Assembly: GCA_020632155.1 (NCBI GenBank)
Contig: JACKGE010000001.1
Span: forward strand, 381,302-445,301
DNA from: Candidatus Nomurabacteria bacterium
GTDB taxonomy: Bacteria; Patescibacteriota; Minisyncoccia; Phycocordibacterales; UBA918
Length of the DNA stretch: 64,000 nucleotides
Reading direction: 5' to 3'
Of the stretch, positions 14,492 through 48,098 are shown piece by piece. Below the pieces are notes generated by a model. The model was given only the letters and a program-made list of their open reading frames with translations, ran no database searches and was not told where the DNA came from. Made by a program: the position numbers and the translations under genes. Numbering within the stretch: the first letter of the stretch is position 1; every line of letters begins with the position of its first letter.

Positions 14492-14973
14492 ATCGTCTTG
14501 CACCAGATTAATTTTTTTAACAGTGTTAAGTGGTTGTTCGCTACTTCGTTGCCCACCTGTCACTGATTCGCTGCACTCATATCGCAGTTGCAAACGTGCA
14601 GTTTGCAGCGAATTAACTTTCTGCAGAGGTATATGGTAATTTTGTACTGCGTTGCCCACCTACACACTTGTTGCAAGCAACATCGTGTGTTCATTCACTA
14701 CGTTCATGATTAGATAAAAGAAAAAATTAATTTTCTTGTCCACCTATGAACTATCTCACTTCGTTCGACAAAGTTCATTCATTCGCTCTGCTCATGACCG
14801 GATAAAAAATTACACTAGTAATTTTTTATCCACAAATTTTTTTTACAAAAGACATTGTATAAATTTTTTTCCGCGCGATAATATACATACAAGCTGACAT
14901 TCTCTCAATGGGTTGTTCTTTGACAAGAGAACGTCGCGGTCGATTCTTTATACACTAAACTCACACCACACTT
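14492..14973. promoter_or_regulatory. 480-bp non-coding leader with three degenerate ~90-bp direct repeats (TTGyCCACCT ... TTCATTC ... CTCATGA), a small hairpin (TGCAAACgtgcaGTTTGCA) and an AT-rich promoter-like tract (TGTATAAAT, TTGACA) upstream of the histone-like gene
   Basis: No ORF >60 aa. Repeats seen at about 14555-14600, 14647-14700 and 14733-14800. AT-rich tract 14800-14900. Confidence 0.4.
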
Positions 14974-15186
14974 ATGCCAGCAAAAAAGAAAGCTGCCAAG
15001 AAGACAGCGCGCAAGTCTACTAAGAAGACAGTTCGCAAGGCTGCTAAGAAGACCGCAAAGCGCGCACCTAAGAAGGCTGCGAAGAAGACAACCAAGCGTA
15101 AGGCTGCGAAGAAGACTGCTAAAAAAGCAGCAAAGCGCAAGCCAGCTAAGAAAGCTGCCAAGAAGGCTGTACGTCGCAAGAAGTAA
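14974..15186 (+). CDS. histone H1-like lysine/alanine-rich DNA-binding protein (Hc1/AlgP-repeat-like)
   Basis: 70 aa, MPAKKKAAKKTARKSTKKTVRKAAKK... composed almost entirely of AAKK/TAKK repeats. Followed by a rho-independent terminator. The antisense ORFs are artefacts of the repeat. Confidence 0.75.
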   Translation: MPAKKKAAKKTARKSTKKTVRKAAKKTAKRAPKKAAKKTTKRKAAKKTAKKAAKRKPAKKAAKKAVRRKK

Positions 15187-15208
15187 ATTCCTTACTTCAT
15201 TCGACACA

Positions 15209-21248: not shown

Positions 21249-21263
21249 CGTTTGTGCTATACA

Positions 21264-21296
21264 AAAAACCGCGAGATATCCACTCGCGGTTTTTTG
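21264..21296 (+). terminator. rho-independent terminator after gatB
   Basis: AAAAAACCGCGAGatatccactCTCGCGGTTTTTTG. Confidence 0.8.
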
Positions 21297-21324
21297 TCAC
21301 CACCTGTATAATAGGGCACAGCAT

Positions 21325-22209
21325 ATGGAAACTATCTCGGTTAATGGAGAAACCTTTATAAAAGCCAACATTCTGGCCCGAGAACTCGGCTACACAGCAG
21401 ACTATGTTGGGCAGCTGTGTCGTGGTGGCAAAGTGAAAGCAGAGCTCGTGGGGCGAAGTTGGTTTGTAGAACCAGAATCCCTTCGGTCTCATCGTAAGGG
21501 TCGTTATCGAAGTGTAGCTAAGAAATCTAAGCTACAGATAGAAAAGCAAACTAAGACCACTGAGACAGTACCGGCCAAGGAAGGGTCAACTCACATACCG
21601 ATCAATAAGCATTTTTACAGTCGTGGTGTACAAAAGAATGTTCGGTATGAAATGGACGAAAGCGAATTGATGCCAGCAATCAAGCCCACTGACAAAGGAG
21701 AGTCTTCACGTTTGCAAGTACATTTGGCAGAAGCGCGGCAAATGAACATAAAAAGCACTGAAAAAGCCTATAAAATGGAAGCTACAGAGCTCCCAACATT
21801 TAAACGTGACGGCACCCTTACGATAGCGGAAGCTCCTGAACTTGCAGAGAATCCAGTATCAGAAGCAAAAAAAACGCCAAAAAAGGGTACGCACAAGAGC
21901 TCAGAAGCAAAATCGCGGCACGTAAACGTACATAGTAGTGATAGTGCGGAAGTGGTTCCTATTGCCACTGCAGTTAAAACACACAAAAAAAGGACCGTAA
22001 CAGCAAAGCGCAGGACAGCTCAAAAGGGCCATGGCCTTAGAGCGCTGTGGTGGGTGTTTGTGTGGGTGGCAGTCAGTGCTCTTGGGCTGATTATAGCTAC
22101 GCTTGAGTACCACACAAGCGTAGGCGGTAACGTTTCTGACAGTTATTCGTTTGAGCCAGAAAATATAAAAACAATTTTTGAAATAGCAAAAATGTACCTA
22201 AAAATATAG
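21325..22209 (+). CDS. membrane-tethered protein with N-terminal excisionase/MerR-like HTH (HTH_17-like), one TM segment and extracytoplasmic C-domain
   Basis: N-terminus ARELGYTADYVGQLCRGGKVKAELVGRSWFVEPESL. Single hydrophobic helix LRALWWVFVWVAVSALGLIIATL near the C-terminus. Paralog of 22575..23294. Confidence 0.55.
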   Translation: METISVNGETFIKANILARELGYTADYVGQLCRGGKVKAELVGRSWFVEPESLRSHRKGRYRSVAKKSKLQIEKQTKTTETVPAKEGSTHIPINKHFYSRGVQKNVRYEMDESELMPAIKPTDKGESSRLQVHLAEARQMNIKSTEKAYKMEATELPTFKRDGTLTIAEAPELAENPVSEAKKTPKKGTHKSSEAKSRHVNVHSSDSAEVVPIATAVKTHKKRTVTAKRRTAQKGHGLRALWWVFVWVAVSALGLIIATLEYHTSVGGNVSDSYSFEPENIKTIFEIAKMYLKI

Positions 22210-22574
22210 TTTTTTCGTGTAGCCGAGATTTATTTTGCCAAGCCTACATAGCTGGTTGTGTAAAAATACAGGCCTTGTTTGCCCTGATGGTGTGTAAGGG
22301 CTGATTGTTCCGGTTTGTAACTGTAAGGTCCTTATTTCTTGTCAGGGCTTTTTCTCTAAGTACAAGGGAGAGTAGGGTTGCTGGTTTCGGAGGCGGCGGC
22401 TCAGGCCTGTAGGCGGGTGCTGAACAGGTTGTACTTCACATAAAAAAGAAGTGGTCTTGATCGAGTAGAGGTCTCCCTGCTGCAGGACAAACAGGTGTTT
22501 TTTACTGTCCACATATGGAGCGTTTTTGAGCCAAAAAAAAGGCGAAATCACTATAAAATATATAGCAATATCGT

Positions 22575-23294
22575 ATGAGCTTCGATCCTTCACCACAGGC
22601 TAAATTCATACCCGTTAAAGAAGCCGCCAAACTGGTCGGCTACACGACCGACTACGTCGCTAAGTTGGCGCGGGAGGGAAAGGTCGATGCACGGCGCAAT
22701 GGTCGACAGTGGTTCGTTGGCCGCGACTCAGTGAAACTCTTTTCACTGCAGCAAGAGGAGCTCAAAAAAACTCGTCAACAAGAATTAAAAGAGCAGCGTC
22801 TTAGAGAGCGTCATGGTGAGGTGAGTACGGCATCGCCATCGGTAGCAAAAATCGAGAAACAAGAAAGTGGAGCGCATGAAGCGCTCGCGACTACGGCCGT
22901 GGTGTTTGCTTCAATCTGCATTATGACCGTCCTCTCACTTTCTGTAGTTGAAAATAAGATCTCGTTTTCAGACATAGGGGCGACGATTGCTGGACTTGCA
23001 GCACGCGTTGGTAGTGTCGCAAATGTTATAGACGGGACTGATTGGTGGCCGCCACAAGGACTCCATCAGGTTGCTCTTGATGGGGAGGCAGTTGGTGGCC
23101 TTAGAGACCTGCCACAGGTAGATAGCAATGAAGCCCGCATCTTGCTTCCGAACAATGAGAATGCTACGTCTGCCGCACGGTATTTTTCTGACGAGGTCAT
23201 GGTGAAGACCAGTGCGAATGGTGCGGTAATAACACCGGTCTTTCGCAGTGGTACTTCAGAACAGGCGTTTGTGATTGAGGATAGTACCGAGTGA
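22575..23294 (+). CDS. paralogous membrane-tethered HTH protein
   Basis: N-terminus AKLVGYTTDYVAKLAREGKVDARRNGRQWFVGRDSV (same motif as 21325 ORF). TM helix ALATTAVVFASICIMTVLSLSVV, then a ~110-aa C-terminal domain. Confidence 0.55.
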   Translation: MSFDPSPQAKFIPVKEAAKLVGYTTDYVAKLAREGKVDARRNGRQWFVGRDSVKLFSLQQEELKKTRQQELKEQRLRERHGEVSTASPSVAKIEKQESGAHEALATTAVVFASICIMTVLSLSVVENKISFSDIGATIAGLAARVGSVANVIDGTDWWPPQGLHQVALDGEAVGGLRDLPQVDSNEARILLPNNENATSAARYFSDEVMVKTSANGAVITPVFRSGTSEQAFVIEDSTE

Positions 23295-23304
23295 GTTTTT
23301 ACGT

Positions 23305-26010
23305 ATGAGCAAGCGTATCATTATCAACCGAATACTACACACAACTACACTTGGTCTTTTGCTCGTGCTTAGCCTTAGTCTCCTTAGCTCTCTTGCGGAG
23401 GCGGCGCCAAACTACCAGATCAACTATCAAGGTAAGCTCCTCGATAGTTCTGGCTCTCCGGTGGCAAATGGTTTATACGACATGGAGTTTAAGCTCTATA
23501 CCGTTCCTACCGGTGGCAGCGCCATTTGGACCGAAACACGCACTGGTGGTAATCAAGTGATGGCCACAAGCGGCCTGTTCTCAGTGATGCTCGGTGAAGT
23601 AGCCTCTCTCTCTGGAGTTGATTTTGATCAAACGCTCTACCTAGGAGTGAATATCGAGGGTGACGGTGAGATGTCACCGCGCAAAGTGCTTGGCTCCGTA
23701 CCGGCTGCATTTGAGGCGGCACACGCAGCTGATAGTGATACCGTGGGCGGTGTTGCTTCTTCCTCGTTCCTCAGAAGTGATGCAGCTGACACAGCTTCAG
23801 GCTTGCTGACATTCACTGGAGGACTTGTCAGTACAGCCTCTAGTACCATCACTGATCTTACGTTCACTACTGCTACTGCTACAACGCTCGTCATAAACGG
23901 CGAAGCCTTTACTGACTTTACGGGCACTGCACTTGTAAACACCGGTGGGGTACTCTCAGTTTCAACCTCGTCACTGGCAGTGTACTTTGCGTCGACGTCT
24001 GATTTTAATACCGAAGCAAAGTTGGAAAGTATTTTGACTGACGTCACCAACATATACACCAACAACGACGGTTCCCTCAGTGACGACGACCTCAGCAACA
24101 ACAGCACCACCGACCTCGCTGAAGGTACTAACCTCTATTTCACGACTGCTCGCGCTTCTACCACTGCAGCGCAAGTCCTCTTTGCTACCACAACCCTTCC
24201 AAACCTTACGACCTTAGCCAACCTTTCTACCGTTGGCACCATCACCTCCGGAACGTGGAACGGCACCGCCATCGGTGACGCCTACCTCACCAAGACTGGT
24301 GACTGGACCGGCACCTTCGACGGACAGGAGGGGAGTTACTATCTCAATGCCGACAATCTCACCAACCTCGATGCTAGTGATATTGCTCTTACCAACGGTT
24401 ACGTTCTGCGCGGTTCAGCAGGTGGCACCGCTGAGGCCACTAGCTCACTCTTTATTACTGACGCTGGAAATGTGGGGATTGGGACAACGACGCCAGATTA
24501 CCCACTTGAAGTGGTTGGCCGTACCGAACTCCACGGCATCACTGTTGTTGACGGCCGTTCTACCAGTGTTGATGGCCCTCACTTCACTGTTAGTGATGAT
24601 GCCAACCTGCCCCTGTTTGACATCTCGTCTTCCTTTGGCCAAACCTTTATCAACAGCAACAAGAATGCCCGCTTCTTTGACAGTGTCTACCTTGCTGACG
24701 AGCTCCAAGACGTCACTCAATCAGCTGGTTCCAATGGGTACATTCTACAGTCAACTGGTACCAGTACGCTGTGGACCGACCCTACTAGTCTTGGTTTCAT
24801 TGCTACTACCAGTGGCAACTGGACCGGCACCTTCGACGGACAGGAGGGGAGTTACTACCTAGACCTCGCCAATGCTACGGGTGATACTGACGACCTCACC
24901 GAAGGCAGCACCAACCTCTTCTCTCAGTGGGGCACCTCTGGCTCTAACGTCTACTACAACAGTGGAAATGTGGGGATTGGGACGACAAGTCCGCAGACCA
25001 CCTTGCATGTCTCAGACACCAGTGCAATTTTGCGACTTGACCCGACCGGAGCAAGTGGGGATGCTTCCATCCAATACTACGCTGACGCTGCTGCTCGCTG
25101 GTCAAGTGGTGTAGATAATGATGATAGCTACAAATACAAGATATCTACCGGATCTGCTCTTGGTAGTGGTGAGGCGCTGACTATTGATACCTCCGGCAAC
25201 ATTGGTATCGGAACCACAACACCAGATCAAATACTTACGGTTGCGGGTAACGCATATATAACGGGCGGAGCTACAACCAGCGACCTCTATGTTACCGATA
25301 CGTTCAGTGGGGCCGGTTTAACCGCTTGTAGTGGTTCTGCCTCTAAACTCCTGTGGAGCTCTACAACACAGCAATTTGTTTGTGGAGCTGACGCTGGCGC
25401 TGGCGGGGGTATCACCGCACTTGGTGTGGCTGGTTCGTACCAAAGCGGTTCTACGCAGACCCTTGCCACTTCCAGTGATACTAACCTAGAACTCACTATT
25501 GTCTCAAGCGGCGATACACATACATTTACACCGGTTTGGAACGGCACACTCGCTGTTGGACGTGGTGGTACCGGCGCAGGTTCTTTCAACGCTGGTGAAC
25601 TCCTCGTCGGCAACGGTACCGGCGCCCTTACCTCGACCACTACCGCTGGACTCAAAGCCACATTGGCGCTCGACAATGTAGAGAACACCGCGCTCTCGAC
25701 GTGGCTGGCTCAAGCAATATCACGACACTCGGCACGATTGGTACCGGCATCTGGAACGGCACTGCCATCGGTGACGCCTACCTCACCAAGACCGGCGACT
25801 GGACCGGCACCTTCGACGGACAGGAGGGGAGTTACTACCTCAACGCCGACAATCTCACCAACCTCGATGCTAGTGATATTGCTCTTACCAACGGCTACGT
25901 CCTTCGTGGTTCAGCTGCTAACACTGCCGAAGCTACCAGCTCGCTCTTTATTACTGACGCTGGAAATGTGGGGATTGGTACTACGACGCCAGATTACCCA
26001 CTTGAAGTAG
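23305..26010 (+). CDS. giant tail-fibre-like surface protein, 5' segment (signal peptide; reading frame is lost at ~25696 and the remaining ORF is out-of-frame translation)
   Basis: MSKRIIINRILHTTTLGLLLVLSLSLLSSLAEA signal peptide. Repeated GNVGIGTTTP and GTWNGTAIGDAYLTKTGDWTGTFDGQEGSYYL modules. After nt ~25696 the ORF translates the alternative frame of the repeat (…ISRHSARLVPASGTALPSVTPTSPRP…). Confidence 0.6.
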   Translation: MSKRIIINRILHTTTLGLLLVLSLSLLSSLAEAAPNYQINYQGKLLDSSGSPVANGLYDMEFKLYTVPTGGSAIWTETRTGGNQVMATSGLFSVMLGEVASLSGVDFDQTLYLGVNIEGDGEMSPRKVLGSVPAAFEAAHAADSDTVGGVASSSFLRSDAADTASGLLTFTGGLVSTASSTITDLTFTTATATTLVINGEAFTDFTGTALVNTGGVLSVSTSSLAVYFASTSDFNTEAKLESILTDVTNIYTNNDGSLSDDDLSNNSTTDLAEGTNLYFTTARASTTAAQVLFATTTLPNLTTLANLSTVGTITSGTWNGTAIGDAYLTKTGDWTGTFDGQEGSYYLNADNLTNLDASDIALTNGYVLRGSAGGTAEATSSLFITDAGNVGIGTTTPDYPLEVVGRTELHGITVVDGRSTSVDGPHFTVSDDANLPLFDISSSFGQTFINSNKNARFFDSVYLADELQDVTQSAGSNGYILQSTGTSTLWTDPTSLGFIATTSGNWTGTFDGQEGSYYLDLANATGDTDDLTEGSTNLFSQWGTSGSNVYYNSGNVGIGTTSPQTTLHVSDTSAILRLDPTGASGDASIQYYADAAARWSSGVDNDDSYKYKISTGSALGSGEALTIDTSGNIGIGTTTPDQILTVAGNAYITGGATTSDLYVTDTFSGAGLTACSGSASKLLWSSTTQQFVCGADAGAGGGITALGVAGSYQSGSTQTLATSSDTNLELTIVSSGDTHTFTPVWNGTLAVGRGGTGAGSFNAGELLVGNGTGALTSTTTAGLKATLALDNVENTALSTWLAQAISRHSARLVPASGTALPSVTPTSPRPATGPAPSTDRRGVTTSTPTISPTSMLVILLLPTATSFVVQLLTLPKLPARSLLLTLEMWGLVLRRQITHLK
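24241..24775 (+). repeat. ~530-bp near-identical intragenic direct repeat, copy 1
   Basis: Near-identical to 25746..26275 (encodes TWNGTAIGDAYLTKTGDWTGTFDGQEGSYYLNADNLTNLDASDIALTNGYVLRGSA...GNVGIGTTTPDYPLEVVGRTELHGITVVDGRSTSVDGPHFTVSDDANLPLFDISSSFGQTFINSNKNARFFDSVYLADELQDVTQSAGS). Confidence 0.8.
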
Positions 26011-28553
26011 TTGGCCGCACCGAACTCCACGGCATCACTGTTGTTGACGGTCGTTCTACCAGTGTTGATGGCCCTCACTTCACTGTTAGTGATGATGCCA
26101 ACCTGCCCCTGTTTGACATCTCGTCTTCCTTTGGCCAAACCTTTATCAACAGCAACAAGAATGCCCGCTTCTTTGACAGTGTCTACCTTGCTGACGAGCT
26201 CCAAGACGTCACTCAGTCGGCCGGTTCTGCTGGCTACGTGCTTCAATCTACCGGTACTAGTACGCTGTGGGTCGCAACAAGCAGTCTCGGAATCAGCGCT
26301 GGTGGCGGTGGTACGGTGAGTAGCGTTGCAGCGAGTGTCCCGACTGGTTGGACAGTGACTGGTAGTCCGATAACTGCTACAGGAACTCTTGCGTTTGACT
26401 ACGACACCGGCTACGGCGCCGTCCTTATAGCCAGTACCACTGACTGGCAAACCGCCTACAGTTGGGGCAACCATGCCGCTGCCGGCTATCTCGACGGTAC
26501 TGACATCGGTTCAACCGTCCAAGGCTACAATGCCAACACCACCATCCTCGGTTCTACCATTAATGCTAACGAACTAGCGAGCGAAGACTTCGGTGACTTC
26601 ACCTGCAATGGCACAACGTGCTCCCTTGATGCTGACACCGTGGCGGCCTCTGAAATGGCCGACAGTGATCACGGCTTCTTCTCATACAGCTCCGGAGTAG
26701 CATCTCTCGACACCGATGGCCTCACTAGTGCCAACCTGTCTGGTGCGCTCACTAATGAGACTGGTACTGGAAGTGTCGTGTTCTCAAGTTCACCGACTCT
26801 CACCACACCAGATCTTGGTACTCCAAGTGCAATTACTCTAACCAATGCTACCGGCCTCCCGCTCTCAACTGGCGTCACTGGCACGCTTGATATCGCCAAC
26901 GGTGGTCTTGGCATCTCATACACCGATCCAAATGCTGATCGCATTCTCTTCTGGGATGATAGTGCTGGTAGATTTTGCCAACCTGACAGCTTCAACCGGA
27001 CTCACCCTTACTGGCACTAACCTCACTGTCCGTAGTGCCTCAGAATCTCAGACTGGTATTGCCGAGTTTGCTACTCAAACCGAGGTCAATACCGGAACCG
27101 ATACTACGCGTGTGGTACGCGCCAATACCCTTGGTGCGTGGCCTGGCACCACCAACCTCACCACCCTCGGCACCATCACTACCGGAACGTGGAACGGCAC
27201 CGCCATCGGTGACGCCTACCTCACCAAGACTGGTGACTGGACCGGCACCTTCGACGGACAGGAGGGGAGTTACTACCTAGACCTCGCCAATGCTACGGGT
27301 GATACTGACGACCTCACCGAAGGCAGCACCAACCTCTTCTCTGATGGACCACCTCTGGCTCTGATATTTGCAGTGGAAGTGTTGGAATTGGTATTGACGA
27401 GTCCATTCAGCACAACCACTAAAACGCTCACCGTTGATGCTGGAGGGGTTCATCTGGCAATATGCCGGCCTTGAACTACGTGGTGGCAAATGGTAATTTG
27501 CTGGAAATAGTGAAATTGGTTTTTTGCTGGAGAGGACGCTTACGAGCACTCGCGTATGAGCTGATGTAACGGGTGGCGGGATCTTGGTTGGAAATCGGCC
27601 TTTATACCAACCAGAATTCTGCAGCGAATCTCACAGAACGAATGCGCGTTAACTATCTTGGTAACGTCGGCATCCGGGACGACAGGTCCGTGAAGCTTGA
27701 CGTGGTTGGGAATATCCGTGCATATACTACTACAAGTAATAACGGCCTTATTATTTCATCAGGAAGTACCAATACTGGTGCTCGAAACTGGTTCGTTGGC
27801 GCAAACACTCCTGTGGCTTATGGTGATTTTGCTCTGCAGCAGTCAAATGCACTGGGTGGTGATCCACGCACTGCTGGTACGGCACGGTTGTATACGCTCC
27901 TCCGGGTCGGCATCACCACCACTCCATCAGAACTCCTGCATGCGCCTGGCGATGCCCGTATAGAAGGACGCTTTATGACAGCACTTCACCAAGCGGTGCT
28001 CTCGGCTACGTCCTCCAAACTACCGGCACGGAGAGTACCATGGTGGCGATCAAGTCTTGGCCGTGAACACCAACACAATTAACTGTGAAAGCGGGTAGAG
28101 GTTATATATTTGATGGCAGCAACAGTGGCACGCTCTCTTCTGGAACTTGGCACTTTGATTCACTTACAGATGATACAGTTAGATGATACATATAACACCC
28201 TCGGCATATCTCGACAGTACTGTAGCAGATGGCGCTCTTTCAATGCCAACGTCTCACTCTACTCGGCAGCGCTATAGACCCACTGGATCTTGCAGACGAT
28301 GATTTCGGAGACTTTTCTTGCTCCAGTGGTATCTCTGTACCTTTGATAACGACACCATCGCTCCAGCCGAGATGGCTGATGCTGACACGGCTTCTTCTCA
28401 TACAGCTGGAGGGTAGCTTCGCTTGACAGGTGGCCTTACCAGTGCAAACCTCGCATCTGCCCTCACTAATGAAACTGGTGGCAGTGCGGTGTTTCAGCTT
28501 CGCCAACTCTCACTACCTAACCTCCAGTACACCAAGCGCTGTCACATTAACTA
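25697..28553 (+). pseudogene. frameshift-riddled, degenerate paralogous segments of the giant surface-protein gene (or assembly errors in a collapsed repeat)
   Basis: Homolog-guided comparison shows 1-nt indels at ~25696 (tggcctggc -> tggctggc), ~26962 (aacttt -> agatttt), and ~27345-27474 (premature stop). Fragments 27573..28082 and 28229..28768 still encode recognisable modules (GNVGI, DLADDDFGDFSCSSG, TNATGLPISTG) but in shifting frames. Confidence 0.5.
25746..26275 (+). repeat. ~530-bp intragenic direct repeat, copy 2
   Basis: See copy 1. Only scattered synonymous or conservative differences between the two copies. Confidence 0.8.
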
Positions 28554-31500
28554 ATGCAACTGGTCTCCCAATTAGCACTGGCCTTAGTGGTGCTGGAACC
28601 GGCGTCCTTACTGCTCTTGGTGTTAACATCAGGTTCCTTTGTGGTCAATGGTGGCGCTCTTGGCACCCCATCCTCAGGTACTCTCTGCAACGACTGGCTT
28701 ACCACTCTCTACCGGGTGACTGGCACACTTGGTATTGCCAATGGCGGTCTTGGTGTCTCATACACTGATCCAAATGCAGACCGTATCTTATTCTGGGACG
28801 ATAGTGCTGGCAACTTCGCTAACCTTGTCGCCTCAACTGGTCTTACTTTGTCGGGCACCAACCTAACGGTCCGAGCTGCTTCAGAATCACAAACTGGTAT
28901 TGCTCCGCAAAGGAGTTTGCTACTCAAACCGAGGTCAATACCGGAACCGATACTACGCGTGTGGTACGCGCCAATACCCCTCGGTGCGTGGCTGGTCACC
29001 AACCTCACCACCCTCGGCACCATCACTACCGGAACGTGGAACGGCACCGCCATCGGTGACGCCTACCTCACCAAGACTGGTGACTGGACCGGCACCTTCG
29101 ACGGACAGGAGGGGAGTTACTACCTAGACCTCGCCAATGCTACGGGTGATACTGACGACCTCACCGAAGGCACAACCAACCTCTTCTCCCAGTGGACCAC
29201 CTCCGGCTCTGATATCTACTACAACAGTGGAAATGTTGGTATTGGGACGACGACGCCGGACCAGCCCCTGGTCGTCCTTGGTGGTACTGCAAGTACAGCA
29301 CCAAACCTACTCACTATCCAGTCAAATGAAGGTGGTAGCACCAGTCCGGGCGATGTGTACGCCGGTATTCAGTTTGGTGTATATGGGGGAGAGAATGGCA
29401 GTGGTGCACAGCCAGTAACCGCCTTTATCAAAGCGGTTGATACGAGAGCTGGCGCTACTTCAAATGAAGACGGGGGACTTTCTTTTGGAACCCTGAATTC
29501 CACCGGCGGTCCGACAGAACGGATGATTATTACTCACGATGGTAAGGTCGGTATTGGCACCTCTGATCCGTCTGACACTCTCAATGTTGCTGGTAACACC
29601 GACATTACCGGTGAAGTGCAGATTGATGGAACATTGTCTATCGGTGGCGTCGCGCCGAACAGTTCACGCAGTCTCTATATAAATGACTCATTCACTGATG
29701 ATGCAGCTACGTACGGCATATATAACCTAACCAACTTCGGCTCCTCCATAAGTGGAAACCGTACACCATATAGTAGTTTCAATAAACTTACGGTCGACGG
29801 GTATACCTTAAATTCTAATACTCTTAACCCAGCGGGTGTGTATGGCGAAGTCGAGATATTAAATGGCAATGAAGATGTTGGTAGCGCCCGTGGATTATAC
29901 TCGGTTGTAGATAACCAAAATACCAGTGGTACATTGGACGCTAGTTACGCCATTGATGTACTTACCCAAACTTCGGCTAATTCTACTACTACCAACGCGT
30001 ATGCGTTTAGAAGCAATTTAACCAATAACGGCTACATCGGTAACTACTACGGTATTTATCTCACGGATGTAGTAGAGGGAGGGCAGGGCAATGCCTACGC
30101 GTTCTGGACCAATGAAGGAGACGTTGTTCTTGACGGCGACGGCGACGGTGTTGCAGGTGGTACCGATGTTGGCACCAACCTTTTCTTTGGCGAAAGTCAA
30201 GATGCAGCAATTTGGTATGACGGCGCCGATTTTAACATTGATCCGCAAATCGTTGGTTCAGGTGATCTGCTCATACCAAACGGCAACGTTGGTATTGGTG
30301 ACCCGACACCTTCATCTAAACTTGATGTGTACGAAAATAGTACCAATGCCGCTGGTGCGAGTGGACTTACACTAGAACAAGCTGGTACTGGTGATGTAAA
30401 CATTTCATTCCTACTGACGGGTACACGACGTTGGAATGTTGGTGTCGACAACAGTGATAGTGATAGGTTCAAAATCCTCTCCGACAATAGCAATGATTAC
30501 AGTGGTTCAGGACTGGTGATTAACACGAATGGTAATGTCGGCATCGGCGCAGCCGACCCCTCTGTGGCTAAACTGCAAACGTACGTGAATGATACAAGCT
30601 CGTACCAAAATCTCATTGAGCAGGACAGTACTGGTGACTCGGCACTCTCGTTCCTTTTAACAGGCACTAAACAATGGATCGTTGGTATTGATAATAGCGA
30701 CGGTGACAAGTTCAAGATCGGCGAAGGAGGTGCTGTTGATTCTGAAACCGCACTAACCATTGATACGTCTAGTAATGTTGGTATTGGTATCACTGACCCA
30801 AGCACCTACTTACAAATTACCCGAGCATCAAACGCGTGGCCAGCGACTTCGGGAACCACTCAAAGTACTGGCCAATATATGCGCCTCGGAAACAATACTG
30901 GTTCTGTTCTTGATATCGGTGGCAACAGTACCTCAGGCCAGTGGCTACAATCCACAAACGCCACCAATCTTGCCACCAATTATCCGCTACTCCTAAATCC
31001 AAATGGTGGCAACGTCGGTATCGGTGATTCCTCTCCAGCCAGTCTATTCACCGTCGGTAACGGCGACCTGTTCCAAGTAAACTCCTCTGGTGACATTATC
31101 ACGCAGTCTGTTGGTGTCGATGCACTGGAGAGCGAAGACTTCGGTGACTTCACTTGCAATGGCACGACGTGTACTCTCGACGCTACCTATCTGACGGGCA
31201 ACCAAACCATCACCCTTTCTGGAGACGTCTCTGGTTCTGGTGCTACCAGCATCAGCACCACTCTGGCGGCTGACACCGTTGATTATTCAAATATCGATTA
31301 CTCAGCAGTCATTGGTAGCGACCCATCATTTGGAGCTAGTGAGACCTTCTTTGGCACTACCGGTGTCATCTTTGAAGGATCGTCTGCTGATACATTTGAA
31401 GGGCTCCTTACCACCACCAATATTACCGGTTCAGATAAGACATGGACATTGCCAAATACCACCGGCACCATCGCGCTCCTAACGAGTGCTATGACCGGTA

Positions 31501-34500
31501 CTTTTGACGGCAACAACTTCGGCGGGGGAGCAATTGGTGCCGGTGACCTTCTCTACGGTTCAGCTGCCGGTACCATTTCAGAACTTTCTGGCGCCGCGAC
31601 GGGCAACGTGCTCCTTTCCGGTGGTGCAACTGGGGCCCCAAGCTGGGGCAAGGTTTCTGCCACAGCACTCAGCGCCGCTGACTTCGGTGACTTCACCTGC
31701 AACGGCACCACCTGTACACTCGACGATACCTACTTAGCAAACGGAGACCACTGGACCCTCACCGGTGACCCGTACCTCTATTACACAGGAGGGAATGTGG
31801 GTATTGGTACGTCGTCTCCAACCAATCTTCTCTATATAAACGGCGGTAACATCGGTACCTCGACGGCAACGGTTGTTATTGATGACGGCCTCGGTTCGCT
31901 TGGTTTGACGCCGCCAACTCCATATAACGCTTCCCTTAAACTCTATAACGGTATTGGTGATAACTCTGTAGTACTCCGCTCGATGTCTGATTCCAGTGGT
32001 TCTAATAATGGGGAGAATACCGCCGAATTGGCATTTACCAGCTTGAGTGAAGCGTCCGTTGGTACAACTGACTCCGCACCGTTCTACCTCAAGACCAACA
32101 ATACCTCACGTCTCTATATTGACTCCTCCGGCAACGTTGGTATCGGTACCACGAGTCCACAACGATTATTGCACTTGAGTACGATTGGTCAGGCAACGGG
32201 TGCGGTAGCACGTATGGAGGCACCAACTGGATATGACACTAAATTTGAATTTTGGGAAGATGGAGTTGAATTGTGGGAATTTGGTGCTGATACAAGCGCA
32301 GATCTGTTTGCGATTGGACCGACCGTTAATACAGCGGATTTTGTCATCGACTCCTCCGGCAACGTCGGTATTGGTACTACAAGCCCAAGTACGTTACTCC
32401 AGATTGGAGACGGTACGAATGATGCTATCCAAACATTCACCGATGGCCTCGGCTCACTACAAGCTACTATTGATTTTCAAACCTCCGGAACAGGAGCCCC
32501 ATCTAATCCAGATGGATGGAAGTTGCGTTTGTACGGGCAGAGTACTTATGATGCAGCTGATTATGGTATCGGCATCAACGGCAATACACTCTGGTTTAAT
32601 ACAGGCGGTACAAACATAGATTTCTATGACAGTGGTAGTCAGATTGCAACCTTCCAAAACGGTAATTTTGGAATTGGCGACACCTCACCTGCCGCACTTC
32701 TCACTGTCGGCAATGGAGATCTCTTCCAAGTGAACTCCTCCGGTGTTGTTACGGCCGGTACGTGGCAGGGAACAGCACTTACAGACGCCTATGTAAGTGA
32801 TACCCTAACAGCATCAACATGGCAGGGGTATACCATTAGCGGCGGTGATGACCTTGATACCGTCTCAGTACCAACCGGCCGTAAGGTAACAATTGGCGGT
32901 TATGCAGGTGTGTCACCAACCAATACTCCAAACTCAGAACAGTATGGTGCTCTTATTACTGCTCACGATGGTTCACAGCAAAATCAGCTTTGGTTTGGTG
33001 GTACAACCTCCGGCGATATTTATGTACGTCGGCGCGATAGTGGTACTTACTACGCGTGGACTCGCTTCTGGAATGATGCGAACGATGGCTCTGGCAGTGG
33101 CCTTGATGCCGATACCCTTGACGGCGTCGACTCCTCTGCTTTTAGTCAACTCGGTGCTTTCATTGATCCAGTTGATCTCGCTGACGATGACTTCGGTGAC
33201 TTCACTTGTACGACCGGTTTCTGTTTCCTTGATAACGATGTGGTAGCAGCGGCGGAAATGGCTAATGGTGACCACGGCTTCTTCTCATACAGTGGTGGTG
33301 TCGCTTCGCTTGATACCGGAGGTCTTACTTCTGCCAACCTTATTAGTGCACTCACTAACGAGACCGGTTCCGGCAGCGCAGTCTTCTCTGCGTCACCAAC
33401 TTTCACAGGTACGGTAAACGCCGCTGCCGCCACACTTTCAAGCACTCTCACTCTTTCCGGCACTGCCGCCAATATAGCGCTTGGCTCCAACTACCTCTCT
33501 GGTGATGGTGGTGACGAAGGCATTGCAATTGACTCAAGCGGTAATGTGACACTAACTGGCGATCTAACCGGAACTACCGACACCAAATTGGCCCTTACAC
33601 ATGCTGGTAACGAAACCGGATTCTCCTTCATACAGACCAATGTGCTCTCTGGCGAACAGGATGTCTTTGTGATCGAGGACCAAGATGGCGGCGGCGGCGG
33701 ACAAGACGAAAGCTCGGTTTTAAAAGTCATCAAGTCTGGTGCTTGGAACAGTGCGGATGATGGCTCATCGCTTATAGAGTTACTCTACAGCGGTGGTGGT
33801 AGCTTAAACCCTGACCAGCAGTTCTATATCACCGGTCGGACCACCGACGAAGGTGCTCTGACATGGGGTGTATCACAAACGGATGCTGACATCTGGAGCA
33901 CCGGTTCCTTGCGGCTTGGCGCAACAGGTGTTGATTGTTCTGGTACCAACGCACCATGTTTCAATTCACCAAGCATCGCCTTTGAAACCTCCGGAAATTC
34001 GTATATCAATACCGGTGGAAACTTTGGTATCGGCACAACGACGCCAAGCGCACTTCTCCATATTGACGCCAGTGCTGCTGCTGGTTCTGCCTTTAGGATC
34101 AGTACCACCTCAGCCACTTTCTTTGACGTCGATGCAGTGACGGGTGTTTCTACCTTTGGTGACTCAAGTGGTACTGGTGATGCGGTATTCCAGTTTGCTA
34201 ATGATGCTAATGCATGGGCCGTCGGGTATAAAGCGGCAGACCTATCATTTAACATCGCTTCGGGTACTGACCTTACCGGTACCATTGCATTATCTATAGC
34301 TAAAAGCGGTAATGTAACTATCGTTGGCTCGGCAGTGACTTGTGTACTCGGTAATGGTTCGAGCGCTACCAGCTGTTCATCATCTGATGAGCGACTCAAG
34401 GACGAGATCACTACCTTAAGTGGTACGAGCACTCTTGAACAACTGCGCAGACTTCGCCCAGTCTCATTCTTCTGGAACGATTGGATGCAGGAGAACGGTT

Positions 34501-35249
34501 CTACTGACGGTATCCAGTACGGACTCATCGCTCAAGAAGTAAAGGAGGTGTTCCCGTCGCTGGTGATGCGCGACCCAAACACAAACTACTACCGTCTTGA
34601 CTACCAAAACCTCATATCACCAACCATCAGTGCGGTACTTGAGCTCGACATGAATCTGGAGAGCTTGGCATCGAGCACAATGCCACTTCTTGATGAACGT
34701 GATGAGGAGACCTTTGCTGGCCGCTTCTTTGCTCGTTTGGTGACATGGCTCGGTGACACCGCCAATGGCATCGGCGACCTCTTTGCTGATCGAGTGCGTA
34801 CCAAGGAGATATGCGTTGAAAAAGCCAATGGTAGTGCCGTCTGTGTTAATGGAGATGAACTGGAGTCACTCCTTAATGGCCAAAGTACCGGCGGTAGTGG
34901 GGGAAGCGGAAATGTTGGCGGTGGTTCGACCGCTGGCGGCAACACACCACCTTCGGACGACCCTGTCGATGATACAACCGGCACCAGTACCGATGACGGC
35001 AGTACCTCGGGTGACACTACAGATGGAACCACAGGTACATCAACTGATTCGGGTACTGGTGATGGTGAAACTACAGACGGTGGTGATTCTATTCCTGATC
35101 AAACTGACACTATTGAGGGAGATAGTGGTAGCCAAGGTGATGGTACGGATGCTTCGAACGATCAATCAGGTGATAACAACACCACGGATGCTACTGATAC
35201 TGATTCGAATGGAGCGGAGGAGCCGGATAACACATCCACTGGCGGTTAA
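28554..35249 (+). CDS. giant tail-fibre-like surface protein, 3' segment (2231 codons), ending in an intramolecular-chaperone / peptidase S74-like autoprocessing domain and an acidic T/D/G-rich tail
   Basis: Dozens of GNVGIG(T/D)(T/S)SP beta-repeat units. Recurring DFGDFTCNGTTCTLD cysteine-pair modules. Near the C-terminus CSSS-DERLKDEITTL...YGLIAQEVKEVFPSLVMRDPNTNYYRLDYQNLISPTISAVLEL matches the S-D autocleavage and chaperone consensus of phage tail-spike/fibre C-terminal domains. The ATG at 28554 is not a credible start: the first ~60 codons are out-of-frame relative to homologous copies. The gene is most likely continuous with 23305. Confidence 0.7.
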   Translation: MQLVSQLALALVVLEPASLLLLVLTSGSFVVNGGALGTPSSGTLCNDWLTTLYRVTGTLGIANGGLGVSYTDPNADRILFWDDSAGNFANLVASTGLTLSGTNLTVRAASESQTGIAPQRSLLLKPRSIPEPILRVWYAPIPLGAWLVTNLTTLGTITTGTWNGTAIGDAYLTKTGDWTGTFDGQEGSYYLDLANATGDTDDLTEGTTNLFSQWTTSGSDIYYNSGNVGIGTTTPDQPLVVLGGTASTAPNLLTIQSNEGGSTSPGDVYAGIQFGVYGGENGSGAQPVTAFIKAVDTRAGATSNEDGGLSFGTLNSTGGPTERMIITHDGKVGIGTSDPSDTLNVAGNTDITGEVQIDGTLSIGGVAPNSSRSLYINDSFTDDAATYGIYNLTNFGSSISGNRTPYSSFNKLTVDGYTLNSNTLNPAGVYGEVEILNGNEDVGSARGLYSVVDNQNTSGTLDASYAIDVLTQTSANSTTTNAYAFRSNLTNNGYIGNYYGIYLTDVVEGGQGNAYAFWTNEGDVVLDGDGDGVAGGTDVGTNLFFGESQDAAIWYDGADFNIDPQIVGSGDLLIPNGNVGIGDPTPSSKLDVYENSTNAAGASGLTLEQAGTGDVNISFLLTGTRRWNVGVDNSDSDRFKILSDNSNDYSGSGLVINTNGNVGIGAADPSVAKLQTYVNDTSSYQNLIEQDSTGDSALSFLLTGTKQWIVGIDNSDGDKFKIGEGGAVDSETALTIDTSSNVGIGITDPSTYLQITRASNAWPATSGTTQSTGQYMRLGNNTGSVLDIGGNSTSGQWLQSTNATNLATNYPLLLNPNGGNVGIGDSSPASLFTVGNGDLFQVNSSGDIITQSVGVDALESEDFGDFTCNGTTCTLDATYLTGNQTITLSGDVSGSGATSISTTLAADTVDYSNIDYSAVIGSDPSFGASETFFGTTGVIFEGSSADTFEGLLTTTNITGSDKTWTLPNTTGTIALLTSAMTGTFDGNNFGGGAIGAGDLLYGSAAGTISELSGAATGNVLLSGGATGAPSWGKVSATALSAADFGDFTCNGTTCTLDDTYLANGDHWTLTGDPYLYYTGGNVGIGTSSPTNLLYINGGNIGTSTATVVIDDGLGSLGLTPPTPYNASLKLYNGIGDNSVVLRSMSDSSGSNNGENTAELAFTSLSEASVGTTDSAPFYLKTNNTSRLYIDSSGNVGIGTTSPQRLLHLSTIGQATGAVARMEAPTGYDTKFEFWEDGVELWEFGADTSADLFAIGPTVNTADFVIDSSGNVGIGTTSPSTLLQIGDGTNDAIQTFTDGLGSLQATIDFQTSGTGAPSNPDGWKLRLYGQSTYDAADYGIGINGNTLWFNTGGTNIDFYDSGSQIATFQNGNFGIGDTSPAALLTVGNGDLFQVNSSGVVTAGTWQGTALTDAYVSDTLTASTWQGYTISGGDDLDTVSVPTGRKVTIGGYAGVSPTNTPNSEQYGALITAHDGSQQNQLWFGGTTSGDIYVRRRDSGTYYAWTRFWNDANDGSGSGLDADTLDGVDSSAFSQLGAFIDPVDLADDDFGDFTCTTGFCFLDNDVVAAAEMANGDHGFFSYSGGVASLDTGGLTSANLISALTNETGSGSAVFSASPTFTGTVNAAAATLSSTLTLSGTAANIALGSNYLSGDGGDEGIAIDSSGNVTLTGDLTGTTDTKLALTHAGNETGFSFIQTNVLSGEQDVFVIEDQDGGGGGQDESSVLKVIKSGAWNSADDGSSLIELLYSGGGSLNPDQQFYITGRTTDEGALTWGVSQTDADIWSTGSLRLGATGVDCSGTNAPCFNSPSIAFETSGNSYINTGGNFGIGTTTPSALLHIDASAAAGSAFRISTTSATFFDVDAVTGVSTFGDSSGTGDAVFQFANDANAWAVGYKAADLSFNIASGTDLTGTIALSIAKSGNVTIVGSAVTCVLGNGSSATSCSSSDERLKDEITTLSGTSTLEQLRRLRPVSFFWNDWMQENGSTDGIQYGLIAQEVKEVFPSLVMRDPNTNYYRLDYQNLISPTISAVLELDMNLESLASSTMPLLDERDEETFAGRFFARLVTWLGDTANGIGDLFADRVRTKEICVEKANGSAVCVNGDELESLLNGQSTGGSGGSGNVGGGSTAGGNTPPSDDPVDDTTGTSTDDGSTSGDTTDGTTGTSTDSGTGDGETTDGGDSIPDQTDTIEGDSGSQGDGTDASNDQSGDNNTTDATDTDSNGAEEPDNTSTGG

Positions 35250-35257
35250 CATTGTGT

Positions 35258-38805: not shown

Positions 38806-38907
38806 TAGAGCATATCCACACAGGCGTATGGGTGGGAATAAAAATGGTAGTGGGTGGGGTATAATTAAGTGATATCCAATTAACAACCTAGCCGTTTTGT
38901 ATTTACT

Positions 38908-39612: not shown

Positions 39613-39630
39613 GTATAGACTGGGAGGGTT

Positions 39631-40704: not shown

Positions 40705-40717
40705 TACAATAAGGGGT

Positions 40718-48095: not shown

Positions 48096-48098
48096 AAT

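What the first reader, a model, noticed from the sequence alone, without database searches (positions are those of the whole stretch)
21325..23294. Tandem paralogous membrane-tethered HTH proteins immediately upstream of the surface-protein locus
Both proteins begin with the same excisionase/MerR-like HTH motif (LGYTxDYVxxLxRxGKVxAxxxGRxWFV). A charged linker follows, then one TM helix and a short extracytoplasmic tail. That is the topology of ToxR/CadC-like one-component transmembrane transcription regulators. A 365-bp intergenic region separates them. Their position suggests they sense an external cue and control the adjacent adhesin operon. This is an inference.
Basis: partly seen in the sequence, partly recalled or inferred. 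Interest (0 to 1): 0.55.

Follow-up and report, generated by a model that had tools for sequence, protein, structure and literature searches.

The report
Paired membrane-tethered HTH proteins heading fibre locus
Two neighbouring genes of an uncultured Patescibacteria genome encode related DNA-binding-type domains held at the inner face of the cell membrane; the pair is conserved in hundreds of related species, and the second one is sometimes fused to giant cell-surface fibre proteins, so it may couple the fibre directly to control of its own gene.

Summary
ORF A (21325-22209, 294 aa) and ORF B (22575-23294, 239 aa) share an N-terminal domain (profile-profile E 6e-21). AlphaFold models it at pLDDT 93-98, and it superimposes on excisionase/MerR-type winged helices such as Pukovnik Xis, RdfS, BldC and RacA. 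Each protein has one TM helix, and charge bias puts the N-terminus in the cytoplasm.

New findings:
- gatB-A-B is syntenic in about 86 loci, from 324 matches in species-representative genomes.
- The B module (HTH, coiled coil, TM) forms the N-terminus of proteins over 3000 aa in several relatives.
- B's promoter carries a conserved 26-34 bp inverted repeat centred on the -10 box, 17 nt before the ATG. Its core is unique in the window and co-varies with B's recognition helix.
It lies 30-32 or 39-42 nt upstream of the -10 box, but it recurs at unrelated promoters, so it is not an A/B-specific operator.

Verdict: these are transmembrane HTH proteins of a known architectural class, but not ToxR/CadC family members. 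B most likely anchors and autoregulates the giant-fibre locus. A's role is open. DNA binding is untested.

The parts
21261..21297 (+). Intrinsic terminator hairpin after gatB (ACAAAAAACCGCGAG...CTCGCGGTTTTTTGT)
   Evidence: A perfect 15-bp inverted repeat with a T-run. Equivalent hairpins precede A in many loci.
21305..21312 (+). Extended -10 box (TGTATAAT) of A's own promoter, 12 nt before the ATG. This implies a near-leaderless mRNA (inference).
   Evidence: TGnTATAMT lies 8-12 nt before the A start codon in almost all of 85 loci.
21325..22209 (+). ORF A, 294 aa. Order of parts: winged HTH, basic helix, short conserved linear motifs, disordered K/R/S/T-rich linker, one TM helix, 34-aa outside tail.
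   Evidence: More than 173 homologues, all from Patescibacteria-type MAGs.
21325..21474 (+). A winged HTH (aa 1-50), secondary structure beta-beta-alpha-alpha-beta-beta.
   Evidence: pLDDT 93-97. Matches Xis, RdfS, BldC and RacA folds. Invariant in the family alignment: G22 Y23 T24 D26 Y27 V28 G29 Q30 L31 R33 V42 G43 R44 W46 V48.
21472..21567 (+). A long basic helix (aa 50-81), with invariant S52, H56, R60, R62 and near-invariant Y61.
21613..21675 (+). A conserved linear motif FY...Y108..D111..ELxP117 inside a region modelled with low confidence.
   Evidence: Y108, D111 and P117 are invariant in 28 sequences. Partner unknown.
22036..22104 (+). A transmembrane helix (aa 238-260).
   Evidence: Kyte-Doolittle hydropathy 2.28. 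AF2 helix 237-262. One such segment in all but one of the ~85 complete A relatives (L024, a truncated 160-aa ORF, has none).
22210..22574 (+). A-B spacer, 365 bp. Only its last ~70 nt are conserved.
   Evidence: The spacer length is bimodal across loci, 29-138 or 205-684 bp. blastn finds conservation only in the last ~36 nt. No Rfam family matches. RNA fold z-score is -1.8.
22505..22513 (+). DnaA-box-like 9-mer CTGTCCACA (family consensus TTATCCACA).
   Evidence: Within 1 mismatch of the consensus in 43 of 77 loci, against 1.1% of control windows. Spacing to the -10 box is 30-32 or 39-42 nt in 60 of 62 loci. The same element recurs at other promoters.
22542..22574 (+). Imperfect inverted repeat GCGAAATCACTATAAAATATATAGCAATATCGT. 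It is centred on the -10 box (TATAAA, 22552-22557) and ends at B's ATG. Candidate operator.
   Evidence: At least 12 of 16 arm positions pair in 23 of 77 loci, against 24 of 1700 controls. The centre lies at about -17. The core is unique in the window. Base identity is conserved at fixed distances from the centre. The core class co-varies with the B recognition helix.
22575..23294 (+). ORF B, 239 aa. Order of parts: winged HTH, coiled-coil helix continuing into the TM helix, 114-aa outside region with a conserved C-terminal beta motif.
22605..22721 (+). B winged HTH (aa 11-49).
   Evidence: pLDDT 98. Pukovnik Xis 30% identity, rmsd 1.8 A. HTH_17, TIGR01764 and phrog_6401 hits.
22722..22880 (+). 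B charged helix (aa 50-102), a presumed dimerising coiled coil with invariant R75 and E78.
   Evidence: AF2 helices 50-85 and 87-127 at pLDDT 93-97. Alignments A2 and A4.
22881..22949 (+). B transmembrane helix (aa 103-125).
   Evidence: Kyte-Doolittle hydropathy 2.35. A single TM at about aa 96-153 in nearly all complete B relatives (two, L037 and L038, fall below the hydropathy threshold).
23184..23264 (+). B C-terminal outside motif FSDEVxV...G.ITPVF... (consensus FSDEV.V.F..G.I.P.F...YRFLLVPV).
   Evidence: Found in standalone B proteins only, always at the C-terminus, and never in the fused giant proteins. AF2 models a beta hairpin at 208-221.
23305..38239 (+). Downstream surface-fibre locus. 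It holds repeat-rich ORFs broken into several reading frames, a 2231-aa protein with Peptidase_S74, and a 995-aa protein with DUF2341, Laminin_G_3 and Gly_rich_2.

Best explanation
A and B are a conserved pair of paralogous single-pass membrane proteins. In each, a cytoplasmic excisionase/MerR-type winged HTH is tethered to the inner face of the membrane.

B opens the giant surface-fibre locus. It is a type-II (N-in) membrane anchor. In most species its outside C-terminal beta motif is free. In some species that outside part is replaced by the giant fibre protein itself.

Proposed mechanism, all inferred:
- B dimerises through its juxtamembrane coiled coil.
- The two HTH domains occupy the inverted repeat that straddles the -10 box and the transcription start of B's own promoter.
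- Output of the B/fibre operon is thereby set from the membrane, as autoregulation, and the locus is held next to the translocon.

A has its own promoter, a near-invariant HTH and only a stub outside the cell. It is proposed to be a constitutive partner or co-regulator rather than a sensor.

Shown here: the fold, the topology, the paralogy, the synteny, the fusions and the conserved cis-elements. Inferred: DNA binding, dimerisation, the direction of regulation, and any role for A.
For: - Fold. AF2 gives pLDDT 93-98 for the domain. The best Foldseek matches are Xis, RdfS, BldC, RacA, TraN, GlnR, SoxR and NmlR, nearly all DNA-binding or solved with DNA.
- Family signature. HTH_17 matches 21 of 33 B relatives, best E 1.1e-7. 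The G-R-x-W wing motif is present.
- Topology. There is one TM helix in every relative and the charge bias is positive inside.
- Synteny. The gene order gatB-A-B (or gatB-A-A-like) occurs in 75 of 86 loci. The search for related loci found 324 matches in species-representative genomes.
- Fusions. The B module is the N-terminus of proteins of at least 3381 and 3646 aa (the first runs off its locus), and of 3451-, 2732-, 1584- and 604-aa proteins.
- Operon structure. The gene after B starts within about 10 nt of B's stop in the window and in many loci. In 28 of about 41 loci with enough sequence, an ORF of at least 900 aa follows.
- Inverted repeat. It is centred at -17 +/- 1. At least 11 of 16 arm positions pair in 39 of 77 loci, against 62 of 1700 controls.
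- The repeat looks like a protein site, not an RNA stem. Base identity is fixed at set distances from the centre, one position is usually unpaired, and G-U-compatible mismatches are not enriched.
- The repeat core is unique in the 64-kb window. It is retained upstream of fused giant genes (L002, L006, L026, L029) and upstream of a second B copy in L063.
- Co-variation. The residue before the DY of B's recognition helix is R/K in 16 of 16 loci with core CTTTATAATTAAAG. It is non-basic in 19 of 20 loci with core CTATA-N5-TATAG.
Against: - No binding experiment exists.
- The co-variation is not corrected for phylogeny and may reflect a single clade split.
- Window B scores below the curated cut-offs of HTH_17 and TIGR01764. 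Window A has no Pfam hit.
- Some fused B modules lack the wing Trp (L006).
- In about 12 of 41 loci B is followed by a different surface cluster with its own promoter, not by a giant gene.
- The whole region, from murB and secA through to the pentose-phosphate genes, is syntenic in this clade. Adjacency alone therefore proves little.
- Excisionase-like folds can also serve protein-protein contacts (CbpM and TniQ appear among the fold hits).
- Nothing assigns a function to A.
Confidence: 0.45

Rival explanations
1. DNA tether, not regulator. The HTH domains bind DNA only to hold the chromosome or the fibre locus at the membrane. This would resemble RacA-type anchoring, or would assist co-translational export of proteins over 2000 aa. 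The conserved promoter elements would then be served by other factors such as DnaA.
For: - RacA (MerR-like wHTH plus coiled coil) is among the fold hits for both proteins.
- The B module sits on giant exported proteins.
- secA lies in the same syntenic block.
- The 9-mer equals the DnaA-box consensus and occurs at many promoters.
Against: - The inverted repeat is specific to B's promoter, overlaps the -10 box, and its core class tracks B's recognition helix.
- A tether would not need a site placed exactly on the transcription start.
Confidence: 0.2
2. Protein-binding adaptor. The winged helix has been recruited for a cytoplasmic protein contact, as the RodZ HTH binds MreB and CbpM binds CbpA. 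On this view A and B organise fibre placement or secretion, and neither binds DNA.
For: - A's HTH is more conserved than B's: mean pairwise identity 0.66 against 0.47, with 15 invariant residues. This would fit a conserved protein partner.
- A carries conserved short linear motifs in a disordered linker.
- CbpM and TniQ appear among the fold hits.
- The N-in HTH-TM topology is the same as RodZ's (my own knowledge).
Against: - The top fold hits are DNA-bound excisionase/MerR domains.
- The HTH_17 signature residues (recognition helix, GRxW wing) are kept.
- No RodZ-type domain (HTH_25, DUF4115) is detected.
- This reading leaves the B-promoter palindrome unexplained.
Confidence: 0.15
3. The inverted repeat is an RNA hairpin in read-through transcripts from A. 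It would sequester B's start region or act as a processing site, and would not be a protein operator.
For: - In loci with spacers of about 30-140 bp there is no room for a terminator between A and B.
- The arms differ between species but stay complementary.
- The window's hairpin folds with z-score -2.6.
Against: - The window's hairpin is weak, at -6.1 kcal/mol.
- G-U-compatible mismatches are not enriched: 20 of 118, against 12.6% expected.
- Base identity, not just pairing, is conserved at fixed distances from the centre, and position 8 is usually unpaired.
- The -10 box at the centre implies that most transcripts start inside the repeat.
Confidence: 0.1
4. Remnants of a mobile element. On this view A and B are excisionases (recombination directionality factors) of an integrated phage or ICE.
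For: Weak PHROG and TIGRFAM excisionase matches for B. The best fold hit is a phage Xis.
Against: - Both proteins carry a TM helix.
- They sit in a fixed position between gatB and the fibre locus in about 86 loci, with housekeeping neighbours.
- No integrase was seen among the called genes in the flanks inspected.
Confidence: 0.01

Closest known systems
Transmembrane transcription regulators (TTRs) as a class: ToxR, TcpP, CadC, VtrA (survey: Demey et al. 2023, PMC10269533)
   Same: An N-terminal cytoplasmic DNA-binding-type domain, one TM helix and the C-terminus outside. The survey found single-pass proteins to be the commonest TTR form and found that many kinds of DNA-binding domain are used. 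The gene sits next to a surface or virulence-type locus.
   Different: - The DNA-binding domain is excisionase/MerR-type (HTH_17), not OmpR-type Trans_reg_C.
- A has almost no outside domain.
- B's outside part is a docking-like motif or an entire giant fibre, not a ligand sensor.
- The two paralogues occur as a fixed tandem pair.
RacA of Bacillus subtilis (PDB 5i44)
   Same: A MerR-like winged HTH followed directly by a coiled coil, which links DNA to the cell envelope. It appears among the fold hits at probability 0.97-0.99 for B and 0.69-0.80 for A.
   Different: RacA is soluble, reaches the membrane through DivIVA, and binds many GC-rich sites (my own knowledge). B is itself membrane-spanning, and the only candidate site seen here is its own promoter.
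BldC of Streptomyces and small excisionases (Pukovnik Xis 4j2n, RdfS 8dgl)
   Same: A minimal excisionase-like wHTH. These are the best structural matches: rmsd 1.5-2.3 A for Pukovnik Xis and BldC and up to 3.5 A for RdfS, identity 13-30%.
   Different: Those proteins are 50-70 aa, soluble, and bind head-to-tail on direct repeats (my own knowledge). A and B add a helix, a linker and a TM segment. The candidate site for B is an inverted repeat.
RodZ
   Same: An N-in single-pass protein with an N-terminal cytoplasmic HTH and a basic juxtamembrane linker.
   Different: RodZ has an Xre-type HTH (HTH_25) that binds MreB, and a periplasmic DUF4115 domain (my own knowledge). Neither domain is detected here.

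Membership tests
HTH_17 / excisionase-family DNA-binding domain (Pfam PF12728, TIGR01764) | Sequence match at or above the curated cut-off | tested here: inconclusive
   Window B scores 19.6 bits against a cut-off of 27 (PF12728) and 24.3 against 28.8 (TIGR01764). Window A has no hit. At family level, 21 of 33 B relatives (best E 1.1e-7) and 4 of 28 A relatives match at E <= 0.01. A is linked to B by hhalign at E 6e-21.
HTH_17 / excisionase-family DNA-binding domain (Pfam PF12728, TIGR01764) | Winged-helix fold (helix-turn-helix followed by a beta-hairpin wing) that superimposes on solved excisionases | tested here: met
   AF2 gives pLDDT 93-98. Pukovnik Xis aligns at rmsd 1.8 A, 28-30% identity, probability 1.0. 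RdfS, BldC, RacA and TraN also match.
HTH_17 / excisionase-family DNA-binding domain (Pfam PF12728, TIGR01764) | Binds DNA | not testable with these tools
   Only indirect support: a conserved inverted repeat at B's promoter, and its co-variation with B's recognition helix.
Recombination directionality factor (true excisionase) | Encoded in a mobile element next to an integrase or att sites | tested here: not met
   The position is fixed between gatB and the fibre locus in about 86 loci, with housekeeping neighbours. No integrase was seen in the inspected flanks.
ToxR/CadC-like receptors | OmpR/PhoB-type winged-helix effector domain (Trans_reg_C) | tested here: not met
   No Trans_reg_C hit in A, in B, or in 61 relatives. 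The domain is HTH_17-like.
ToxR/CadC-like receptors | Single TM helix with the DNA-binding domain in the cytoplasm | tested here: met
   One hydrophobic helix per protein, positive-inside charge bias, and no signal peptide. This is a prediction only.
ToxR/CadC-like receptors | Folded periplasmic or extracellular sensor domain | tested here: not met
   A's tail is 25-50 aa across the family. B's 108-152 aa outside region is modelled as one helix, a disordered stretch and a small beta hairpin. No Pfam domain is found there.
Transmembrane transcription regulators, broad class (PMC10269533) | A DNA-binding domain and at least one TM region in one polypeptide | tested here: met
Transmembrane transcription regulators, broad class (PMC10269533) | Regulates transcription while membrane-bound | not testable with these tools
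   Inferred only from the operator-like repeat over B's -10 box.
RodZ | Xre-type HTH (HTH_25) plus a C-terminal DUF4115 domain | tested here: not met
   No such Pfam hits. The fold is excisionase-type.
DnaA box (for the 9-mer at 22505-22513) | Matches the consensus TTATNCACA | tested here: met
   The family consensus is TTATCCACA. It is within 1 mismatch in 43 of 77 loci, against 1.1% of controls. The window copy CTGTCCACA has 2 mismatches.
DnaA box (for the 9-mer at 22505-22513) | Bound by DnaA | not testable with these tools
   The binding factor is unknown. The same element lies 40-43 nt upstream of the -10 box at several other promoters.

The most novel reading that the evidence does not exclude
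In this Patescibacteria clade the giant host-contact fibre is wired directly to its own promoter. The fibre, or its split-off anchor B, carries a cytoplasmic excisionase-type HTH dimer that sits on an operator over the -10 box. Fibre assembly, load or host contact outside the cell would then change transcription inside it, with no intermediary.

The invariant paralogue A would be a second membrane-tethered factor. It would read the DnaA-box-like 9-mer, which lies about -47 or -57 from the inferred transcription start at the A, B, surface-cluster and Lys-rich nucleoid-protein promoters. That would make A a membrane-bound global regulator in a genome with very few transcription factors.
Probability: 0.15. 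Interest if true: 0.85.

Novelty: new variant of a known kind. Interest (0 to 1): 0.6.

Why it matters
Patescibacteria are ultra-small bacteria, many of them host-attached. How they control their giant surface proteins is unknown, and they encode few recognisable regulators.

A tandem pair of membrane-tethered HTH proteins is conserved at the head of the fibre locus in hundreds of species. One of them is fused in places to proteins over 3000 aa, and its promoter carries a well-defined candidate operator. Together these give a concrete, testable handle on that control.

The pair also extends the known transmembrane-regulator architecture to the excisionase/MerR-type domain. Neither window protein reaches Pfam's cut-off, so this large family (2514 cluster representatives at E <= 1e-10) is mostly annotated as hypothetical.

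Tried and rejected
- TGTCCACMT as a window-level operator. It has 3 hits against 1.23 expected, which is not significant. The composite of 9-mer, spacer and -10 box is also not enriched in the window: 6 against 7.3 in shuffles. Its support comes only from cross-species conservation.
- A known RNA in the 365-bp spacer. Rfam finds nothing at gathering thresholds and only a chance-level hammerhead match (E 0.79). The fold z-score is -1.8. Only the last ~36 nt of the spacer are conserved.
- oriC in the A-B spacer or at 14.5 kb. There is one box per spacer, no turn in cumulative GC skew, and the genes on both sides are co-oriented.
- The 9-mer as a -35 box. No consistent -10 box lies 17 nt downstream of it, judged by reading the sequences.
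- Sequence-profile search of the PDB with the A and B alignments. Nothing reached E < 0.4. A chance-level match of the B C-terminal motif to the YidC P1 domain was seen.
- Word-indexed homologue search with B or with the B alignment. It returned only 4 proteins each time, a prefilter limit. The exhaustive profile search was needed.
- The B C-terminal motif inside fused giant proteins. It is absent there, so the fusions replace B's ectodomain rather than extend it.
- Foldseek against afdb50. The library was unavailable.
- Literature searches found no description of this family.
- My first palindrome scanner had a bug and returned nothing. I redid the scan.
Full report
**The observation**

The window holds two same-strand ORFs at the stated coordinates: A (21325-22209, 294 aa) and B (22575-23294, 239 aa).

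They are similar only at the N-terminus. BLASTP gives 48% identity over aa 11-54, E 5e-10. Alignments of each protein's relatives align to each other by hhalign with probability 99.35% and E 6e-21 over 55 columns. The paralogy is therefore real and confined to one domain.

Curated profile libraries barely see that domain:
- B reaches 19.6 bits on Pfam HTH_17 (cut-off 27) and 24.3 bits on TIGR01764 'excise' (cut-off 28.8).
- A has no hit.

At family level the link is firmer. HTH_17 matches 21 of 33 B relatives (best E 1.1e-7) and 4 of 28 A relatives at E <= 0.01. B also matches phage DNA-binding and excisionase PHROGs.

**Structure and topology**

AlphaFold2 with family alignments models A aa 1-60 at pLDDT 93-97. 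The secondary structure is beta-beta-alpha-alpha-beta-beta, then a long helix at 50-81. B aa 11-80 is modelled at pLDDT 97-98, and its helix runs almost unbroken from residue 50 through the membrane segment to residue 127.

Foldseek against the PDB ranks mycobacteriophage Pukovnik Xis first for both models (28-30% identity, rmsd 1.8 A, probability 1.0). RdfS excisionase, BldC, RacA, TraN, GlnR, SoxR and NmlR follow. The E-values are only 0.02-0.07 because a 45-residue domain is being matched from a long query.

Each protein has exactly one strongly hydrophobic helix: A at aa 238-260 and B at aa 103-125. This holds for nearly every relative examined: one truncated A ORF (L024) and two complete B proteins (L037, L038) fall below the threshold. 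Three features place the HTH in the cytoplasm:
- K+R counts in the 15 residues flanking the TM are 2.0 vs 0.4 for A and 2.8 vs 0.8 for B.
- Net charge of the two halves is +4.4 and -2.2 for A, and +5.9 and -12.5 for B.
- There is no N-terminal signal peptide.

One correction is needed: B's outside part is 114 aa, not short.

**Conservation and context**

A has more than 173 homologues, all from Patescibacteria-type MAGs (Nomurabacteria, Kaiserbacteria and Paceibacteria labels). A pattern scan of one genome per GTDB species found 324 confirmed matches.

I examined 86 non-redundant loci:
- The order gatB-A-B occurs in 61 loci.
- It occurs with the second paralogue scoring closer to A in 11 loci, and with an extra copy in 3.
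- Most of the remaining loci end at a contig edge.

The wider block is also syntenic: murB, secA, obg, gatB, A, B, surface genes, gap, rpiB, rpe, tkt. Adjacency alone is therefore weak evidence for a functional link.

Stronger evidence comes from gene fusion. In L002, L006, L026, L029, L057, L072 and L004, the B-type HTH, coiled coil and TM form the N-terminus of much larger proteins. These include a 3646-aa protein with a Peptidase_S74 domain, one of at least 3381 aa that runs off its locus, and a 604-aa protein.

An exhaustive profile search with B found 7570 cluster representatives at E <= 1e-3, 2514 at E <= 1e-10 and 141 at E <= 1e-30. Most are 230-290 aa, but proteins of 3451, 2732 and 1584 aa are among the best 150.

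Standalone B proteins end in a conserved motif, FSDEV.V.F..G.I.P.F...YRFLLVPV. The fused forms lack it. I read this, by inference, as a docking element that substitutes for covalent attachment.

Downstream of B:
- In the window the next gene starts 10 nt after B's stop.
- In 28 of about 41 loci with enough sequence, an ORF of at least 900 aa follows.
- In the others, B is followed by a conserved four-gene surface cluster.
- L063 has a second B copy after its giant gene.

The window's own fibre locus (23305-38239) contains a 2231-aa Peptidase_S74 protein and a 995-aa protein with DUF2341, Laminin_G_3 and Gly_rich_2 domains. It also has internal repeats up to 99% identical.

**Cis-elements**

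gatB ends in a clean terminator (21261-21297). A has an extended -10 box, TGTATAAT, 12 nt before its ATG, and this arrangement is conserved in nearly all loci. A is therefore its own transcription unit, with an almost leaderless mRNA (inference).

Upstream of B, only the last ~70 nt of the spacer are conserved, and they hold two elements.

First element: an inverted repeat of 26-34 bp centred on a TATAAT-like box, with its right arm ending at the ATG.
- The centre lies at -17 +/- 1.
- At least 12 of 16 arm positions pair in 23 of 77 loci, against 24 of 1700 random windows. At least 11 pair in 39 of 77, against 62 of 1700.
- The window copy (22542-22574) is imperfect, and its core CTATAAAATATATAG is unique in the 64 kb.
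- Base identity is conserved at fixed distances from the centre (A:T at 3, T:A at 4 and 6, C:G at 7, T:A at 10, G:C at 14). Position 8 is usually unpaired.
- G-U-compatible mismatches are not enriched (20 of 118, against 12.6% expected).
- As RNA the window copy folds weakly, at -6.1 kcal/mol.

These properties fit a dimer-binding operator better than an RNA stem.

Two operator core classes exist, and they track one residue at the start of B's recognition helix. It is R/K in 16 of 16 loci with CTTTATAATTAAAG, and non-basic in 19 of 20 loci with CTATA-N5-TATAG (Fisher p = 2e-9). This is suggestive, but it is not corrected for phylogeny.

The repeat is retained upstream of fused giant genes and upstream of the second B copy in L063.

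That is the DnaA-box consensus (my own knowledge).
- It is within 1 mismatch of the consensus in 43 of 77 loci, against 1.1% of controls.
- It lies either 30-32 nt (32 loci) or 39-42 nt (28 loci) upstream of the -10 box. These two classes are one helical turn apart and cover 60 of 62 loci.
- The same 9-mer at 40-43 nt from a -10 box recurs at other promoters in these loci:
  - in front of a 70-aa Lys-rich ORF upstream of secA in about 36 loci (window 14826);
  - at A's own promoter in at least 8 loci;
  - in front of the four-gene surface cluster (window 38812).

The 9-mer is therefore a shared promoter-proximal site for some global factor, not an A/B-specific operator.

**Interpretation**

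The architecture is that of a single-pass transmembrane transcription regulator. This class is now known to be widespread and to use many kinds of DNA-binding domain (PMC10269533).

A and B are not members of the ToxR/CadC family. The effector domain is excisionase/MerR-type rather than Trans_reg_C. A has no outside domain to speak of, and B has no recognisable sensor fold.

My best reading (confidence about 0.45) is as follows. B is the membrane anchor of the giant-fibre system. Its coiled-coil-dimerised HTH occupies the repeat over its own -10 box, which autoregulates the locus from the membrane and probably keeps it next to the translocon. A is a constitutive partner with a more constrained HTH: mean pairwise identity 0.66 against 0.47 for B.

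Rival readings:
- a pure DNA tether, RacA-like;
- a protein-binding adaptor, RodZ- or CbpM-like;
- an RNA-hairpin reading of the repeat;
- a mobile-element excisionase, which the fixed housekeeping context and the TM helices effectively exclude.

Whether DnaA, A or another protein reads the 9-mer cannot be decided here.

**Novelty and score**

I found no description of this family in the literature searched, and most members are annotated as hypothetical.

It is a new variant of a known kind. The known kind is a membrane-tethered HTH regulator. The new features are an excisionase-type domain, a fixed paralogous pair, and fusion of one member to giant adhesin-like proteins.

The fusion, the clean candidate operator and the breadth of conservation make it worth an experiment. 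The absence of any binding data keeps the score moderate, at interest 0.6.

Noticed in passing
window 14826-15187 (and about -6000 to -7400 relative to A in ~36 loci): A 70-aa Lys/Ala-rich histone-H1-like ORF (14975-15187, MPAKKKAAKKTARK...) lies upstream of secA. Its promoter is strongly conserved: TTATCCACA, then about 17 nt, TTGTnn, about 17 nt, GATAAT, then a conserved leader AAGCAGACATTCT. It has no Pfam hit.
   Followed up: partly
window 14540-14835: Three direct copies of TTGCCCACCT / TTGTCCACCT, about 90-100 nt apart, plus a perfect 14-bp hairpin (14800-14831) overlapping TTATCCACA. GC skew and gene orientation argue against an origin of replication. Function unknown.
   Followed up: partly
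window 38812-42987: A conserved four-gene surface cluster (about 234, 357, 266 and 559 aa) follows the fibre genes here and follows B directly in other loci. The 357-aa protein has a sub-threshold WxLIP_PGBD match and a C-terminal TM. The 559-aa protein has fn3 and a C-terminal TM. The cluster's promoter carries the same 9-mer (ATATCCACA at 38812) 39 nt before TATAAT.
   Followed up: partly
window 23275-28554: The first part of the fibre locus is split into overlapping ORFs in different frames (23275-26010, 25701-27020, 26845-27474, 27573-28082). It has internal repeats of 70-99% identity (for example 27150-27341 vs 28997-29188). This could be frameshifts, pseudogenisation or repeat-driven assembly error. 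Relatives have one uninterrupted ORF of 2000-3100 aa here.
   Followed up: partly
loci L010-L089: Many contigs end within a few kb downstream of B, that is, inside the giant repeat-rich gene. That gene evidently breaks metagenome assemblies.
   Followed up: no
window 47619-48632: Two adjacent ORFs (158 and 177 aa) begin with a type IV pilin-like N-terminus (GFTLIELL[IV]VI.IIG).
   Followed up: no
window 21613-21675 (A aa 97-117): A conserved acidic short linear motif Y..D..[DE]L[IFM]P.[LV] in A's disordered linker. It superficially recalls partner-binding peptides such as the FtsZ C-terminal peptide. This is a resemblance from memory and was not tested.
   Followed up: no
A-B spacer across loci: The spacer length is bimodal (29-138 bp or 205-684 bp). 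The extra ~300-400 bp in long-spacer loci is not conserved in sequence and often ends in a T-run just before the 9-mer. Its content is unexplained.
   Followed up: partly
L027 10900-11665; L028 10894-11713; L024 7557-8942: In a few genomes A or B appears truncated or split into two ORFs (HTH part and C-terminal motif part). This could be frameshift, pseudogene or sequencing error.
   Followed up: no
L063 19290-20215: A second B copy sits after the giant gene with a near-identical promoter. Here the 9-mer is in inverted orientation (TGTGTATAA).
   Followed up: partly
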